From NCBI GenBank assembly GCA_012212665.1, contig GCA_012212665.1_4517.1: a stretch of DNA of 64,000 bases. One strand, written 5' to 3'. The position numbers and the translations under genes are program-made. Numbering within the stretch: position 1 is the stretch's first letter; each line of letters starts with the position of its first letter. The notes under the pieces were generated by a model that did not search any database, was not told where the DNA came from, and saw only the letters and a list, made by a program, of their open reading frames with translations. This document shows, piece by piece, positions 16,652 to 53,408 of this stretch. Source of the DNA: a phage.

Positions 16652-16679
16652 AATATTCTCCTCTTGTTTTGATAGGTCT

Positions 16680-16708
16680 ATAGTATCATAGACCATAGTT
16701 GTTGTACA
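16680..16708 (-). promoter_or_regulatory. Early promoter
   Basis: Minus strand TGTACA-17 nt-TACTAT embedded in the GGTCTAT/ATAGACC inverted repeat. Confidence 0.45.
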
Positions 16709-17233
16709 TCATTTTAGCAAAATAAAATCAACTTGTTCTGCCAATGAACGTCTAAACATTAATTGACAACTTCCGAGGATGAAATCAGGTGCTTCATAGA
16801 CCGCGATGTAGTATCCTTTAGCTTTCAAGAGTTCAACATCTACCTGGTCATCAAACCATGCATAAACAGCGTCAACACTTTCAAATCCAAAATAGAACCC
16901 TTGAGCCCAATCTTCGTTCAATTCAAATGTGTGCTCAATTCTATAGTATCTTAAGATATTTTGTTCAAGGAGTTTGTCTTCATTTACTGTAGGACGATTA
17001 GGGACATTATAGTTGTCGCCGTGATGGTAGAAGTTACCTGAGAGTATTCCATGCTTATCAAGGAACTCCCATGTTTCTTCAGAGTTGTCGGTGCCTGACC
17101 AACCGTAAGGTGAGCGAGGTTCTTTATTCCAGGAGATTTCCCAAATTCTGACGGCTTTACCATCTTCGATAGCAACTCCTGGTAAAGATTCACGTTGGGT
17201 ACAAAAACTACGTTCTACGCGGTAAACTAACAT
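16709..17233 (-). CDS. Hypothetical protein
   Basis: ORF of 174 aa with AGAGGAG Shine-Dalgarno. Confidence 0.5.
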   Translation of the reverse strand: MLVYRVERSFCTQRESLPGVAIEDGKAVRIWEISWNKEPRSPYGWSGTDNSEETWEFLDKHGILSGNFYHHGDNYNVPNRPTVNEDKLLEQNILRYYRIEHTFELNEDWAQGFYFGFESVDAVYAWFDDQVDVELLKAKGYYIAVYEAPDFILGSCQLMFRRSLAEQVDFILLK

Positions 17234-17259
17234 ATTATTCTCCTCTAGTCGATAGATTT

Positions 17260-17288
17260 ATAGTATCAAAACTAGAGGAGAAGTAAAC
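17260..17288 (-). promoter_or_regulatory. Early promoter inside a Shine-Dalgarno-sequestering inverted repeat
   Basis: Minus strand GTTTAC-17 nt-TACTAT; 12-bp arms UUCUCCUCUAGU / ACUAGAGGAGAA flank the -10, and the 3' arm contains the Shine-Dalgarno of the downstream gene. Confidence 0.55.
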
Positions 17289-17292
17289 AACT

Positions 17293-17712
17293 TTATGCGA
17301 AAGCAGCTGGGCTATATTTTTTAATTTGGAATTCAGGAACTACCATGAACTGACCAGCGAAAACGATGTTATAAAGCTTAACACCATCTTCAACCCATTG
17401 GTCACTAATAAATCCGGCGATTTGCTTAGTTTTCCATGGCGTTCCATCAGTTGCCGCAGCAATAGTGAATTCATGGTCTTTTTCAACAGAAACTGATCTG
17501 CATAGTCCCCATTTGAACGCTTTTTCTTCTGGCTCAATGAACTGGCTTGAGACGTAGCCAATATTACCGTTAGCATCACGAACTTTAACTTGGTTACGAC
17601 CAAAAACCGGATCACTCACAGAAAGAACTTCAACCAACTTCCCGGCAACTTTAGAGCGAGAAGCAACAGATACATATACGTAATCACCTGTAGAGAGATT
17701 TACAATATTCAT
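17293..17712 (-). CDS. Hypothetical protein, member of a tandem paralogue family (shared C-terminal SDQWVEDG..LYNIVF motif)
   Basis: 139 aa; C-terminus GFISDQWVEDGVKLYNIVFAGQF.VV shared with the next two ORFs. Confidence 0.55.
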   Translation of the reverse strand: MNIVNLSTGDYVYVSVASRSKVAGKLVEVLSVSDPVFGRNQVKVRDANGNIGYVSSQFIEPEEKAFKWGLCRSVSVEKDHEFTIAAATDGTPWKTKQIAGFISDQWVEDGVKLYNIVFAGQFMVVPEFQIKKYSPAAFA

Positions 17713-18236: not shown

Positions 18237-18266
18237 ATTATACTCCATCCGTCCTTGGATGTACAA
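18237..18266 (-). promoter_or_regulatory. Early promoter (variant of the TTATACTCCAACCATCCTTGGTTGTAAAC family)
   Basis: Minus strand TTGTAC-18 nt-TATAAT upstream of the 17722..18207 gene. Confidence 0.45.
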
Positions 18267-22705: not shown

Positions 22706-23287
22706 CTAAAAATTCAACATTTTCAAATGAATGATTTTGTATAACCGAGATAAAGGGTCATATTCTAAGTCTTCAATTTCTACAATCTCAAATCTAGAGA
22801 TACTTGAGACCATGTATTCTTGTTCAGATTCAATCATATCTAGGACGTCAACACGTTTTTCTTCCATAACATGCTTAGGGTTCTTTCCGGCGAGTACAAT
22901 GTTAACCATGTTTTGGTAGTAATCGAAAATGAACGGAGCATTCCTGAGACTAAGAATAGTGTACGTTTGATATTCCCAACTCCCAGAGAACTGTCTGGCC
23001 GTACCAAAGTCTGTTGTAAACGATGTTACTCGTCCGGGAGACCAATGACATCCAACAGAAAGAAGGGAAAGACGTTCTACTTCTTCTGGAGTTACACCAC
23101 GGTAGAGTTCTACTGGTACTGTAGAAGTCATATGCTTACGAACAAGATGGTCTAATTCATAGTGGAAATCTGGGTCTTCCTTAGAATCAGTGCAAGCCCA
23201 GAGAATGTTTTGTTCTTGTTTAGTGAATTTATCATCAATTAGTGCTGCGAGATATTCGCGTTCTTGAAGTTCAGATTGACATGTCAT
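22706..23287 (-). CDS. modB: ADP-ribosyltransferase ModB-like
   Basis: 193 aa; shares architecture with ModA-like (NILWAC, LYRGV, SFTTDFG, E-rich C-terminal half). Confidence 0.65.
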   Translation of the reverse strand: MTCQSELQEREYLAALIDDKFTKQEQNILWACTDSKEDPDFHYELDHLVRKHMTSTVPVELYRGVTPEEVERLSLLSVGCHWSPGRVTSFTTDFGTARQFSGSWEYQTYTILSLRNAPFIFDYYQNMVNIVLAGKNPKHVMEEKRVDVLDMIESEQEYMVSSISRFEIVEIEDLEYDPLSRLYKIIHLKMLNF

Positions 23288-23342
23288 GATAGACCTCCAT
23301 TTAAAGATAAGCCTATCATAACACGAGAGGAGGGAATGTAAA

Positions 23343-28663: not shown

Positions 28664-28694
28664 TACTATACCATAGTCCATCTATAATGTAAAC
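28664..28694 (-). promoter_or_regulatory. Early promoter upstream of sp
   Basis: Minus strand GTTTAC...TGGTATAGT; shares the GGACTACTATACCATA block with 7541 and 8053. Confidence 0.5.
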
Positions 28695-29448: not shown

Positions 29449-29637
29449 TTATCGAAAATCTGCTTCGAAAACTTTCTCGTCATTAATAAATGCTTTAACT
29501 AATGCATTGTTCACTTCAGCAAGTTGTACCGTAACCCACTCGATTTCTTCGCGATCACCTGATAATATGATATCTTTAGTGAACATCTCGCCGCTTTTAA
29601 ACCAGCCAATAAAAGTAACTTTAGTTAATTTGCTCAT
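29449..29637 (-). CDS. dmd: Dmd antitoxin (inhibitor of host RnlA/LsoA toxins)
   Basis: About 62 aa; matches T4 Dmd (V.F.GWFK...MFTK.I......V....AEVN.ALVKAFI.D.KV.E.D.R). Confidence 0.75.
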   Translation of the reverse strand: MSKLTKVTFIGWFKSGEMFTKDIILSGDREEIEWVTVQLAEVNNALVKAFINDEKVFEADFR

Positions 29638-29951
29638 ATTTCCTCGCAAAATGCCCATTCAGCATGATAAACTGTAGCACCTTTAGTATCATTCATTTGA
29701 ACTACATCTACCGGAGAAATTACTCGATAGAGACGTGGTTCACCTCCATAAGAGCGTGCTGCTCGTCCTGCGTAAATCTTTGCTAAACCGATATCTTCAG
29801 TAAAGAATACACGATTCAAGTTTTTCTTACGTCCGGTTTCAGACAGAACTCCTGTTTCTTCAGGAGGACAAAGCATGTTTTCGATTTTAGCTGAACTACT
29901 TGAACCGTGATAAAAAATCTTAAATTCTGCTTTACAATCGATGGTTTTCAT
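29634..29951 (-). CDS. Hypothetical protein
   Basis: ORF of 105 aa with GGAGAA Shine-Dalgarno. Confidence 0.5.
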   Translation of the reverse strand: MKTIDCKAEFKIFYHGSSSSAKIENMLCPPEETGVLSETGRKKNLNRVFFTEDIGLAKIYAGRAARSYGGEPRLYRVISPVDVVQMNDTKGATVYHAEWAFCEEI

Positions 29952-29978
29952 TTTGTTCTCCAGTAGTTGATAGGTCTA

Positions 29979-30006
29979 TAATAACACAACTACTGGAGAA
30001 GTAAAC
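29979..30006 (-). promoter_or_regulatory. Early promoter inside a Shine-Dalgarno-sequestering inverted repeat
   Basis: Minus strand GTTTAC-17 nt-TATTAT; 12-bp arms CUCCAGUAGUUG / CAACUACUGGAG flank the -10 and the 3' arm carries the Shine-Dalgarno. Confidence 0.55.
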
Positions 30007-30381: not shown

Positions 30382-30410
30382 AATGTTTTCCTCTTGGTTG
30401 GTGTAAGTTC

Positions 30411-30440
30411 ATCATATCATGCCTAGAGGAAGATGTAAAC
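30411..30440 (-). promoter_or_regulatory. Early promoter
   Basis: Minus strand GTTTACATC-...-TGATATGAT. Confidence 0.45.
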
Positions 30441-51037: not shown

Positions 51038-51091
51038 TTCATAGGTCTATTATATCATAATATTTAGAGACCTATCTTAAAGCACGAGATA

Positions 51092-51980: not shown

Positions 51981-52220
51981 TTATTTTTTAAGCATGAAAA
52001 GTAAGTAATTTGTATCACGTGGAGTAATATCAACACCCATATCAAAGATGCCTTTATAGATTGGGTATTTGTTTTCGGTTGTATCGAAGCTGAAACTATT
52101 TCCATCACAACTAACAGTAATAGCATCTGTTAAAATGTCATACTCAATCCTAACAATTGAATTACCAATTTTAACGTCGAGGTGTTTTTTGAATTTGATA
52201 AAATCTAATTCTTGGGCCAT
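51981..52220 (-). CDS. Hypothetical protein (55.x)
   Basis: ORF of 79 aa. Confidence 0.45.
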   Translation of the reverse strand: MAQELDFIKFKKHLDVKIGNSIVRIEYDILTDAITVSCDGNSFSFDTTENKYPIYKGIFDMGVDITPRDTNYLLFMLKK

Positions 52221-52283
52221 GATATTTTCCTCATTTTAAGACGATAGGAAGATAATAACATGTCTTCCTATCGTTGTACATTA

Positions 52284-53351: not shown

Positions 53352-53379
53352 TTTATTTTCCTCTATAGTAGATGGTTTA

Positions 53380-53408
53380 ATCTTAACACATCTATTGAGG
53401 ATGTAAAC
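53380..53408 (-). promoter_or_regulatory. Early promoter
   Basis: Minus strand GTTTACATCC-17 nt-TAAGAT. Confidence 0.45.

What the first reader, a model, noticed from the sequence alone, without database searches (positions are those of the whole stretch)
17240..17282. Early promoter nested inside an inverted repeat that sequesters the downstream Shine-Dalgarno in read-through transcripts
The 12-bp arms UUCUCCUCUAGU and ACUAGAGGAGAA flank the -10 element; the 3' arm contains the Shine-Dalgarno of the 16709..17233 gene. Transcripts from upstream would fold and occlude the ribosome-binding site, while transcripts starting at this promoter begin inside the loop and leave it free. The same architecture is at 29952..30002 (arms CUCCAGUAGUUG / CAACUACUGGAG). 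This resembles the known T4 strategy for gene e and soc and implies promoter-specific translational control of these two unknown genes.
Basis: partly seen in the sequence, partly recalled or inferred. Interest (0 to 1): 0.55.

Follow-up and report, generated by a model that had tools for sequence, protein, structure and literature searches.

The report
Early promoter inside RBS-hiding hairpin
In this RB69-like T-even phage, two early genes have a promoter whose spacer is complementary to the gene's own ribosome-binding site, so RNA arriving from upstream should fold and hide that site while RNA started at the gene's own promoter leaves it open; the same co-varying design precedes regB, denV, modB and motB.2 in T4 and relatives, which extends a trick known for T4 late genes to immediate-early genes.

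Summary
Both inverted repeats exist: 12 bp at 17238-17249/17271-17282 and 14 bp at 29956-29969/29987-30000. Each straddles the TGn/-10 of a T4-type early promoter (GTTTAC -35), and each 3' arm holds the Shine-Dalgarno. They are far beyond chance. Predicted read-through RNA locks the SD in a hairpin of about -20 kcal/mol; promoter-proximal RNA is open.

The window is a Mosigvirus (RB69-like). The genes are a motB.2 homolog and RB69ORF040c.

The design is a conserved class, not a local oddity. In a close relative it gives the strongest promoter-dependent SD occlusion in the whole genome, at motB.2, ORF040c, regB, modB and denV. T4 motB.2, regB, denV and modB have it with different arm sequences. 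It is present in 24 of 30 regB and 25 of 27 denV upstream regions from diverse T4-like phages, against a 6% genome background. The arms co-vary.

The composite of promoter plus stem-loop is already known as "PeSL", read there as terminator and recombination site. RBS-hiding hairpins with nested late promoters are also known (e, soc, 49, I-TevI). I found no description of the early-promoter, SD-covering version. Verdict: new variant of a known kind, moderate interest.

The parts
17283..17288 (-). -35 element GTTTAC of the site-1 early promoter
   Evidence: Sequence. It matches the T4 early -35 GTTTAC described in PMC1524935 and the TTTACW..TAYWAT consensus in PMC4122927.
17271..17282 (-). 5' arm TTCTCCTCTAGT. 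It lies in the -35/-10 spacer and is complementary to the SD
17260..17268 (-). Extended -10 (TGa TACTAT) in the loop. The inferred +1 is near 17253
   Evidence: Sequence. The +1 is inferred as the 7th nt after the -10 and has not been mapped.
17238..17249 (-). 3' arm ACTAGAGGAGAA, containing the SD (GAGGAG 17245-17240, GGAG 17243-17240)
16709..17233 (-). Downstream gene, 174 aa, a motB.2 homolog of unknown function
   Evidence: phrog_1106. It is 34% identical to T4 MotB.2, E 6e-16.
17293..17712 (-). Upstream MotB-like gene. Its stop codon (17295-17293) lies 4 nt before GTTTAC, and it is the source of read-through RNA
   Evidence: No terminator-like site lies on the - strand between here and the promoters at 18265 and 18823.
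30001..30006 (-). -35 GTTTAC of the site-2 early promoter. It directly follows the stop codon (30009-30007) of ORF041c
29987..30000 (-). 5' arm TTCTCCAGTAGTTG in the spacer
29978..29986 (-). Extended -10 (TGt TATTAT) in the loop. The inferred +1 is near 29971
29956..29969 (-). 3' arm CAACTACTGGAGAA, containing the SD GGAG (29961-29958)
29634..29951 (-). Downstream gene, 105 aa, RB69ORF040c-like, immediately upstream of dmd
   Evidence: phrog_2110, unknown function.
23285..23320 (-). Same logic in a second mode. The 5' arm is the -10 hexamer plus the next nucleotides (23320-23305). It pairs with the SD-AUG region (23298-23285) of a ModB-like ADP-ribosylase gene (ATG 23287)
   Evidence: opening cost 15.5 vs 4.4 kcal/mol; phrog_832. 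T4 modB has the same arrangement.
30388..30431 (-). Weaker instance at the ORF041c promoter (-35 at 30439). CTTCCTCT pairs with AGAGGAA, which includes the SD
   Evidence: 8.6 vs 2.7 kcal/mol.
53359..53401 (-). Weaker instance. TCCTC plus ATAGATG pairs with CATCTA..GAGGA before a 60-aa gene (ATG 53351)
   Evidence: 9.9 vs 1.1 kcal/mol.

Best explanation
Each site is an immediate-early, sigma-70-type T-even promoter whose -35/-10 spacer doubles as an anti-Shine-Dalgarno sequence.

RNA polymerase arriving from upstream genes transcribes both arms. The RNA then folds into a 12-14-bp hairpin of about -20 kcal/mol, with the -10 in the loop and the SD in the 3' arm, so 30S subunits cannot bind. RNA started at the gene's own promoter begins in the loop, lacks the 5' arm and is freely translated.

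The consequence (inferred) is that protein synthesis from these genes is tied to the brief activity of their own early promoter. It is insulated from the long delayed-early and middle transcripts that keep crossing the region. This would give a short pulse of products such as MotB.2, ORF040c, RegB, ModB and DenV. A side effect is that the GGAG of the SD is single-stranded, and so open to RegB, only in the promoter-proximal RNA.

Shown here: the repeats, their excess over chance, the predicted folds, conservation and co-variation. Inferred: the start sites, the existence of read-through RNA, and the translational outcome.
For: 1. Anatomy and statistics are given (see the observation check).

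2. Genome-wide census in a 97%-identical relative, ECO111 5-P (285 of my own gene calls, of which 284 were scored; 37 have early promoters). The five largest differences between read-through and promoter-proximal SD opening cost include motB.2 (21.4 vs 2.3), ORF040c (20.0 vs 3.7), regB (19.6 vs 4.9) and modB-like (17.2 vs 2.4); denV (15.7 vs 2.6) ranks sixth. Known late-promoter cases such as soc are recovered as positive controls. A difference of at least 6 kcal/mol occurs in 7 of 37 early-promoter genes against 10 of 247 others (Fisher p = 0.003).

3. Orthologous conservation with different arms:
- Two motB.2 alleles, CTAGT/ACTAG and CTGGTT/AACCAG.
- T4 motB.2, UCCUCGGU..GUGGU/ACCAU..ACUGAGGA, -27.1 kcal/mol, z -5.8.
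- T4 regB, 15 bp including 2 G.U pairs, -23.1 kcal/mol. T4 denV, UCUCCUGUAG/CUACAGGAGA, -20.3 kcal/mol.
- T4 modB.

4. Across IMG/VR T4-like contigs, 24 of 30 distinct regB and 25 of 27 distinct denV upstream regions show at least 6 kcal/mol more occlusion in read-through RNA. The genome background is 6%.

5. The 5' arm sits either in the spacer (mode A) or on the -10/+1 region (mode B). The 3' arm always covers the SD/AUG, and the 5' arm always lies upstream of the inferred +1.

6. Chimeras joining the 5' half of one locus to the 3' half of another lose occlusion (native 15.2 vs 8.3 kcal/mol; permutation p = 5e-5).

7. Established knowledge. Hairpins that sequester the SD cut T4 gene e translation about 100-fold, and nested promoters relieve it (PMC3014915). 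Secondary structure protects GGAG from RegB. The T4 motB.2 SD is cleaved by RegB in vivo, and T4 modB RNA was noted to form a stable structure around its GGAG (PMC1702504).
Against: - There is no experimental datum for these loci. Start sites are inferred from consensus spacing, and read-through RNA is inferred from the absence of terminator-like sites.
- About half of the spacer-dependent inverted repeats at early promoters in the relative do not touch the SD (11 of 18). A more general role for promoter-embedded stem-loops therefore exists, and SD coverage could in part be a by-product of short leaders.
- The stems at the two window sites are pure Watson-Crick. Over all 37 promoters there is no sense/antisense energy asymmetry (p = 0.87), so an RNA-level structure is not proven over a DNA-level one at these two sites.
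- ORF040c homologs in LF82-16 and in Gaprivervirus lack the repeat, and in Dhakavirus it is reduced to 5 bp. It is therefore dispensable in some contexts.
- A ribosome terminating 6-11 nt upstream of the 5' arm could fray the helix base.
Confidence: 0.65

Rival explanations
1. It is simply a PeSL as published: a mobile promoter/stem-loop cassette. On this reading the hairpin terminates or attenuates transcription coming from upstream, and its conserved sequence serves as a recombination site for module shuffling. SD coverage is incidental.
For: - PeSLs are defined as early promoters with stem-loops between or overlapping the -35 and -10 boxes. One RB49 stem-loop reduced downstream lacZ as strongly as the rrnB T1 terminator (PMC2839356). 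They are also reported for T4/PST (PMC4122927).
- Homology between this phage and T4-like RB3 breaks exactly at the -35 of site 1.
- Homology of several genera to site 2 starts at the promoter.
- Promoter cassettes recur in the window.
- One GenBank record annotates the site-1 hairpin as a rho-independent terminator.
Against: - No U-tract follows either stem (...GGAGAAUAAUAUG and ...GGAGAACAAAAUG), and the terminator scan finds nothing there.
- A terminator role does not explain why the 3' arm covers the SD/AUG in nearly all regB and denV orthologs through two different 5'-arm placements.
- It also does not explain why the arms co-vary with the SD region.
- Recombination needs sequence identity, not an inverted repeat.
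Confidence: 0.12
2. The selected function is RNA protection rather than translational silencing. The hairpin hides the internal GGAG (and nearby A/U-rich sites) of long polycistronic delayed-early and middle transcripts from RegB and RNase E, so that downstream genes on those transcripts survive.
For: - RegB cuts GGAG in early SDs, and secondary structure protects. [quoted passage not shown]
- Sixteen resistant T4 GGAG sites lie in stable structures (PMC1702504).
- Site 1 (GGAGAAUAAUA) matches 10 of 11 positions of the consensus GGAGRAYARAA, and site 2 (GGAGAACAAAA) matches every letter.
- regB itself carries the design.
Against: - Only 2 of 8 SD-occluded early genes in the relative match the RegB consensus within 1 mismatch.
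- The T4 denV GGAG is intrinsically RegB-resistant by sequence, yet it has the hairpin.
- Durand et al. found no C at position 7 in naturally cleaved T4 sites, so RegB sensitivity of site 2 is uncertain.
- This reading is compatible with the main explanation rather than exclusive of it.
Confidence: 0.12
3. The hairpin is a translational coupling device. In read-through RNA the downstream gene is translated only when ribosomes finishing the upstream gene melt the hairpin.
For: The upstream stop codons lie only 10 nt (site 1) and 6 nt (site 2) before the 5' arm. Coupling by hairpin melting is well established in RNA phages (my own knowledge).
Against: - A terminating ribosome would open at most the first 0-4 of 12-14 bp. 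This is inferred from a footprint of roughly 12-15 nt.
- Coupling does not explain why a strong promoter is always placed so that its transcript lacks the 5' arm.
Confidence: 0.05
4. The repeat acts at the DNA level, or is fortuitous. Candidate DNA-level roles are a cruciform or hairpin that aids promoter melting, a protein operator overlapping the -10, or a product of template-switch mutation.
For: - A repeat straddling the -10 is classic operator geometry.
- The stems at the two window sites are pure Watson-Crick, and there is no overall strand asymmetry.
Against: - Arm sequences differ from promoter to promoter and co-vary, so there is no common operator sequence.
- Loops of 17-21 nt disfavour cruciform extrusion (general knowledge).
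- The T4 regB and motB.2 stems contain G.U pairs that would be A.C mismatches on the other strand. The TAGGACTAT promoter family is 3-7 kcal/mol more stable on the sense strand.
- Chance is excluded.
Confidence: 0.04

Closest known systems
T4 e (lysozyme), soc, 49 and I-TevI/II/III; also segB and Aeh1 mobE: RBS-sequestering hairpins with a nested promoter
   Same: The SD and/or AUG lies in a helix in transcripts from upstream promoters, and a promoter between the arms yields RNA without the 5' arm (PMC3014915; PMC2988022). My opening-cost metric recovers soc, 49 and I-TevII alongside the new cases.
   Different: In all the published cases the nested promoter is a late one (TATAAATA) or a middle one, and the purpose is to delay expression. 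Here it is a sigma-70 early promoter with GTTTAC, TGn and -10. The 5' arm is the promoter spacer itself, or the -10/+1 region. The implied logic is the reverse: confine expression to the immediate-early burst. The review of T4 homing endonucleases states that none of their dedicated promoters is early.
PeSL (promoter-early stem-loop) cassettes of T4-type phages (Arbiol 2010; Comeau 2014)
   Same: A strong early promoter plus a stem-loop in intergenic regions, with the stem-loop lying between or overlapping the -35 and -10 boxes. The cassettes are repeated through variable regions and associated with mosaic junctions. In the close relative, 18 of 37 early promoters have a spacer-dependent fold.
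   Different: The published reading is terminator or attenuator plus recombination site. The five described stem-loop positions all end before the start site, with the SD drawn as a separate downstream element. For T4/PST the stem-loops are described as lying just upstream of the promoter. SD/AUG coverage, promoter-specific translation, and conservation at regB, denV, modB and motB.2 are not mentioned in the text I could read; the figures are not held.
RegB autoregulation and the RegB target site (GGAGRAYARAA)
   Same: The SDs at both sites are GGAG followed by an A-rich tract. regB is described as made from an early promoter that is shut off within 2-3 min, and as cutting its own SD.
   Different: The regB literature I could read does not mention that the regB promoter is nested in a hairpin hiding that SD in longer transcripts (T4; 24 of 30 orthologs). 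RegB action at the window sites is untested.
IS10/IS50 'fold-back inhibition' of transposase translation in read-through transcripts (recalled from my own knowledge, not checked here)
   Same: A sigma-70 promoter lies inside a structure. Transcripts entering from outside pair an upstream segment with the RBS, while the element's own transcript lacks that segment.
   Different: That system belongs to a transposon and serves as protection from external promoters. It is not a phage temporal programme, and the 5' arm is not the promoter spacer.

Membership tests
Promoter-nested RBS-sequestering hairpins (T4 e/soc/49/I-TevI type) | The SD and/or start codon is base-paired in a stable helix in transcripts that start upstream | tested here: met
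   Predicted folds and opening costs: 19.8 and 20.0 kcal/mol in read-through RNA.
Promoter-nested RBS-sequestering hairpins (T4 e/soc/49/I-TevI type) | A promoter lies between the arms, so that its transcript lacks the 5' arm and leaves the RBS free | tested here: met
   GTTTAC, TGn and the -10 lie between the arms. The inferred +1 falls in the loop. Proximal RNA opening cost is 3.3 and 3.7 kcal/mol. The +1 has not been mapped.
Promoter-nested RBS-sequestering hairpins (T4 e/soc/49/I-TevI type) | The nested promoter is a late (gp55, TATAAATA) promoter that delays expression | tested here: not met
   No TATAAATA is present. The promoters are of the early sigma-70 type.
Promoter-nested RBS-sequestering hairpins (T4 e/soc/49/I-TevI type) | Measured difference in translation between long and short transcripts | not testable with these tools
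   This needs reporter fusions or ribosome profiling.
PeSL (promoter-early stem-loop) | A strong sigma-70-like early promoter with an A/T-rich upstream region, lying in an intergenic space between a stop codon and the next SD/ATG | tested here: met
PeSL (promoter-early stem-loop) | A stable stem-loop adjacent to or overlapping the promoter boxes | tested here: met
PeSL (promoter-early stem-loop) | The stem-loop acts as a transcription terminator or attenuator | tested here: inconclusive
   No U-tract follows either stem and no terminator-like call is made. Termination itself cannot be measured here.
PeSL (promoter-early stem-loop) | The motif is repeated in variable regions and sits at mosaic or indel junctions | tested here: met
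   Similar cassettes recur in the window and in the relative. Homology breakpoints fall at the promoters.
Intrinsic (rho-independent) terminator | A G+C-rich short-loop hairpin immediately followed by a U-run | tested here: not met
   The loops are 17-21 nt and the tails are AAUAAUAUG and CAAAAUGAA. The scan is negative. The GenBank 'terminator' label in OL960577 comes from an automated tool.
RegB cleavage site | GGAG followed by the A-rich 7-mer (GGAGRAYARAA), single-stranded | tested here: inconclusive
   Site 2 fits all 11 letters and site 1 fits 10 of 11. Natural T4 sites lack C at position 7, and the RegB of RB69-type phages is diverged.

The most novel reading that the evidence does not exclude
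T-even phages use complementarity between the promoter spacer and the Shine-Dalgarno as a general 'own-promoter-only' translation rule. Under this rule roughly a fifth of early genes, including regB, modB, denV and motB.2, are translated only from their own immediate-early transcripts. Together with early-promoter shut-off and RegB cleavage of the exposed SD, this would set the sharp immediate-early protein pulse. It would also explain why the same GGAG sites are RegB-resistant and silent on delayed-early and middle read-through RNAs.
Probability: 0.45. Interest if true: 0.65.

Novelty: new variant of a known kind. Interest (0 to 1): 0.5.

Why it matters
If the reading is right, it adds a missing layer to the classic T4 temporal programme. 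A class of immediate-early proteins, including the RegB nuclease, the ModB ADP-ribosyltransferase, DenV and MotB.2, would be insulated from the heavy read-through and middle-mode transcription that crosses their genes. Their synthesis would then stop when their own promoter stops.

It would also give PeSL stem-loops a concrete post-transcriptional role. And it offers a structural reason why some GGAG sites are cut by RegB only on short early RNAs.

Practically, it warns annotators that these hairpins are not terminators. It also gives phage engineers a compact insulator design, a promoter whose spacer is the anti-SD.

The mechanism is directly testable in T4, where regB, denV, modB and motB.2 all carry the design.

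Tried and rejected
- RNAalifold on a MAFFT alignment of 16 regB upstream regions predicted no structure, because the arms shift register and sequence between lineages. I replaced it with a native-versus-chimera test. An attempt to build a register-fixed arm alignment for pair counting was dropped, because the helices extend outward to different points.
- Sense versus antisense folding energy over 37 promoters showed no asymmetry (p = 0.87). G.U evidence exists only for some families and for T4 regB and motB.2.
- I tested the idea that occlusion is strong only where no terminator precedes the promoter. It looks true within the ORF040c family (opening cost 19.5-20 with no terminator, 13.8 with a weak one, 1.5-7.7 with canonical ones). 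It is not supported genome-wide: only 4 of 37 early promoters have an upstream terminator (p = 0.49).
- The IMG/VR scan with the MotB.2 protein gave only 3 near-identical loci.
- Rfam found no family anywhere in the window.
- Sequence search of PDB for both proteins found nothing useful. Pfam found nothing for MotB.2, ORF040c or ORF041c.
- Literature searches for an early-promoter version of RBS sequestration in T4-type phages found none. Miller et al. 2003 (MMBR) and Piesiniene et al. 2004 (NAR) are not held. Prior description in the older T4 literature therefore cannot be excluded.
- Rejected as primary readings: intrinsic terminator (no U-run), operator (no shared arm sequence) and RNase III site (stems too short; inference).

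Full report
**What the window is**

A 2-kb stretch around the finding is 95-97% identical to many Mosigvirus (RB69-like T-even) phages. Genes run on the - strand. By the annotation of Shigella phage Shf125875 and Escherichia phage SA35RD, the local order is dda, dexA, motB.1, motB, a MotB-like ORF, motB.2, cef, goF, 39.2 ....

The gene at 16709-17233 is the motB.2 homolog (phrog_1106, function unknown). It is 34% identical over its full length to T4 MotB.2 (E 6e-16). The gene at 29634-29951 is RB69ORF040c, which sits just upstream of dmd.

**The observation**

On the - strand, site 1 reads TAA-agtt-GTTTAC-TTCTCCTCTAGT-tt-TGa-TACTAT-aaatctatcg-ACTAGAGGAGAA-taat-ATG. Site 2 reads TAA-GTTTAC-TTCTCCAGTAGTTG-TGt-TATTAT-agacctat-CAACTACTGGAGAA-caaa-ATG.

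The repeat finder confirms a perfect 12-bp pair at site 1. At site 2 it finds a 19-nt, 89% pair whose perfect core is 14 bp.

GTTTAC, TGn and TAYWAT match the T-even early promoter consensus quoted in PMC1524935 and PMC4122927. The generic sigma-70 scan lists the site-2 promoter. It misses site 1 only because TTTACT/TACTAT scores 8 of 12 against the E. coli consensus; most relatives have TATTAT there.

**Chance**

Only four perfect inverted repeats of at least 11 bp with 3-40-nt loops exist in the 64 kb, against 0.9 expected. Three of them straddle an early-type -10. Shuffling just the spacer removes the fold, with z about -5.5 at both sites.

**Folding**

Read-through RNAs place the SD in a 13-14-bp helix. 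RNAs beginning at the inferred +1 have no significant structure. The ensemble cost of freeing positions -16..+4 is about 20 kcal/mol in read-through RNA and about 3.5 kcal/mol in promoter-proximal RNA.

The upstream genes end 4 nt (site 1) and 0 nt (site 2) before the -35. No terminator-like site lies between these promoters and the next promoters upstream. Read-through is therefore expected, although it has not been shown.

**Not a local curiosity**

I assembled a 97%-identical, unannotated relative (ECO111 5-P) and called genes myself (285). For every scored gene (284) I computed the SD opening cost in read-through and in promoter-proximal RNA.

| Gene | Read-through (kcal/mol) | Proximal (kcal/mol) |
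|---|---|---|
| motB.2 | 21.4 | 2.3 |
| ORF040c | 20.0 | 3.7 |
| 152-aa gene = RegB (PF10715, 6e-69) | 19.6 | 4.9 |
| 193-aa ModB-like ADP-ribosylase | 17.2 | 2.4 |
| 137-aa gene = DenV (PF03013) | 15.7 | 2.6 |

These five early-promoter genes dominate the top of the genome-wide ranking, taking five of its first six places. Late-promoter cases such as soc follow as positive controls.

A difference of at least 6 kcal/mol is found in 7 of 37 early-promoter genes against 10 of 247 others (p = 0.003).

More broadly, 18 of 37 early promoters have a spacer that stabilises a fold (p <= 0.05 against spacer shuffles). In 7 of these the partner is the SD. In 11 the partner lies just after the -10 or inside the spacer. 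This wider phenomenon is the published PeSL motif.

**Conservation and co-variation**

- Within Mosigvirus, motB.2 has two promoter alleles...CTCTAGT/ACTAGAG... and ...CTCTGGTT/AACCAGAG.... This is an A-U to G-C compensatory change.
- T4 motB.2 lies in a different genomic slot and shares only 34% protein identity. It has a 17-bp hairpin with different arms, the -10 in the loop and the SD in the 3' arm (-27.1 kcal/mol, z -5.8).
- T4 regB has UUUUCCUCUUGACUG/CAGUUAAGAGGAGAA, 15 bp including two G.U pairs.
- T4 denV has UCUCCUGUAG/CUACAGGAGA. The Mosigvirus denV has UUCCUCCAAG/CUUGGAGGAA.
- T4 modB and the window's modB-like gene use a second mode. There the 5' arm is the 3' part of the -10 hexamer plus the next 8 nt or so, pairing with SD-AUG.

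From IMG/VR I fetched 39 regB and about 35 T4-like denV loci. Their upstream regions show at least ten different arm sequences per gene, in both modes. Every one of them has a predicted early promoter with a 16-24-nt leader. At least 6 kcal/mol of extra occlusion in read-through RNA is seen in 24 of 30 regB and 25 of 27 denV regions, against 6% of all genes in the reference genome.

Joining the 5' half of one locus to the 3' half of another drops the opening cost from 15.2 to 8.3 kcal/mol on average (permutation p = 5e-5). So the arms track each other beyond the shared CUCC/GGAG core.

Two things stay constant across lineages: the SD/AUG is covered, and the 5' arm lies upstream of the start site. 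The position of the stem relative to the promoter boxes is not constant. That is what a promoter-gated RBS mask predicts. It is not what a terminator or a DNA operator predicts.

**Mechanism and rivals**

Known T4 cases show that such helices can lower translation about 100-fold.

The inferred biological logic is the mirror image of e and soc. Rather than delaying a late gene, the structure confines an early gene to the immediate-early burst and insulates it from delayed-early and middle read-through.

The regB literature says that RegB production must be tightly limited, and that its promoter is off by 2-3 min. ModB is an ADP-ribosyltransferase. Both facts fit a pulse model.

The PeSL reading (terminator plus recombination site) remains partly valid. 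Homology with T4-like RB3 ends exactly at the site-1 -35. Several genera share only the promoter-plus-gene cassette at site 2. But the stems lack U-runs and are not called terminator-like. The 'terminator' label in one GenBank record comes from an automated tool.

RegB shielding of long transcripts is a plausible additional benefit. It does not cover all cases.

Translational coupling and DNA-level roles are less likely, for the reasons given under the rivals.

**Limits**

- Start sites are inferred.
- Gene calls in the relative are my own.
- The IMG/VR contigs are identified only by size and gene content.
- No expression data were available.
- The pre-2005 T4 literature could not be searched.
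- Within the ORF040c family, the hairpin weakens or vanishes where a canonical terminator lies upstream. That pattern is not significant genome-wide.

**Comparison with what is known, and novelty**

The design works like the T4 e/soc/49/I-TevI hairpins. From memory, it also works like IS10/IS50 fold-back inhibition. It fails the 'late promoter' feature of the T4 set.

It is a member of the PeSL motif class by anatomy. The text of the PeSL papers that I could read does not describe SD/AUG coverage, promoter-specific translation, or conservation at regB, denV, modB and motB.2.

The reviews list only late- and middle-promoter examples, and they note that the homing endonuclease genes have no early ones.

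I rate the finding a new variant of a known kind. The anatomy is well supported, the function is untested, and the interest is moderate.

Noticed in passing
window 52241-52274 (- strand): This is the third perfect 12-bp inverted repeat in the window (ACGATAGGAAGA / TCTTCCTATCGT). It also straddles an early-type promoter (TGTACA ... TGt TATTAT) in front of the gene starting at 52220. Here the 3' arm begins inside the -10 and does not reach the SD.
   Followed up: partly
window -35 elements at 28693, 8088 and 7576 (- strand); six copies in ECO111 5-P: A promoter family has TAGGACTAT in the spacer and TAGTCCTA right after a TATAGT -10. The stems contain U.G pairs and are 3-7 kcal/mol more stable on the sense strand than on the antisense strand. 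That points to an RNA or sense-strand structure that would exist only in read-through RNA and ends at the start site. Its function is unknown.
   Followed up: partly
window 61817-61794, 60797-60774, 18818-18795, 18260-18237 (- strand): A promoter cassette, (T/G)TACA-ACCAAGGATGGTTGGAG-TATAAT, is repeated with a small hairpin inside the spacer. The 18260 copy reads ATCCAAGGACGGATGG, a compensatory change in that spacer hairpin.
   Followed up: no
window 16675-16694: A GGTCTAT/ATAGACC repeat surrounds a TACTAT -10-like hexamer just upstream of cef. It overlaps the 3' end of motB.2. The scan tool flags it as terminator-like on the + strand.
   Followed up: no
window 51040-51073 (- strand); ECO111 5-P gene at 113006; T4 gene 55: AGGTCTCT ... 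AGACCTAT flanks a TATAAT upstream of the gene-55-type start, with a GCTTTA (MotA-box-like) sequence further upstream. Read-through occlusion of the SD is 13.6-15.5 against 3.3-5.2 kcal/mol. A separate locus in the relative (75510) has CTCCATAT/ATATGAGG around gtTATAAT. These may be middle-promoter versions of the same trick.
   Followed up: no
L089-L093 (IMG/VR contigs of 345-378 kb carrying denV homologs): In these jumbo phages the -35 TTGAC lies inside the stem of a UUCG-loop terminator: aaaaGGGTTGACttcgGTCAgCCCtttttgcTATAAT. Terminator and promoter physically overlap.
   Followed up: no
L005 16144-16188 (OL960577.1, phage SA35RD): A public record annotates the site-1 hairpin as a rho-independent terminator (WebGeSTer/TransTermHP), although it ends at the start codon and has no U-run. 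This is probably a systematic mis-annotation of such promoter hairpins.
   Followed up: yes
L012 560-625 (phage RB3, T4-like): In the slot between the MotB-like ORF and cef, RB3 carries an unrelated 90-aa gene. Its promoter has ATCAGTAGTTG/CAACTACTGAT around TGgTACTAT, sharing the CAGTAGTTG/CAACTACTG arm core with site 2 of the window. The SD lies outside the stem.
   Followed up: partly
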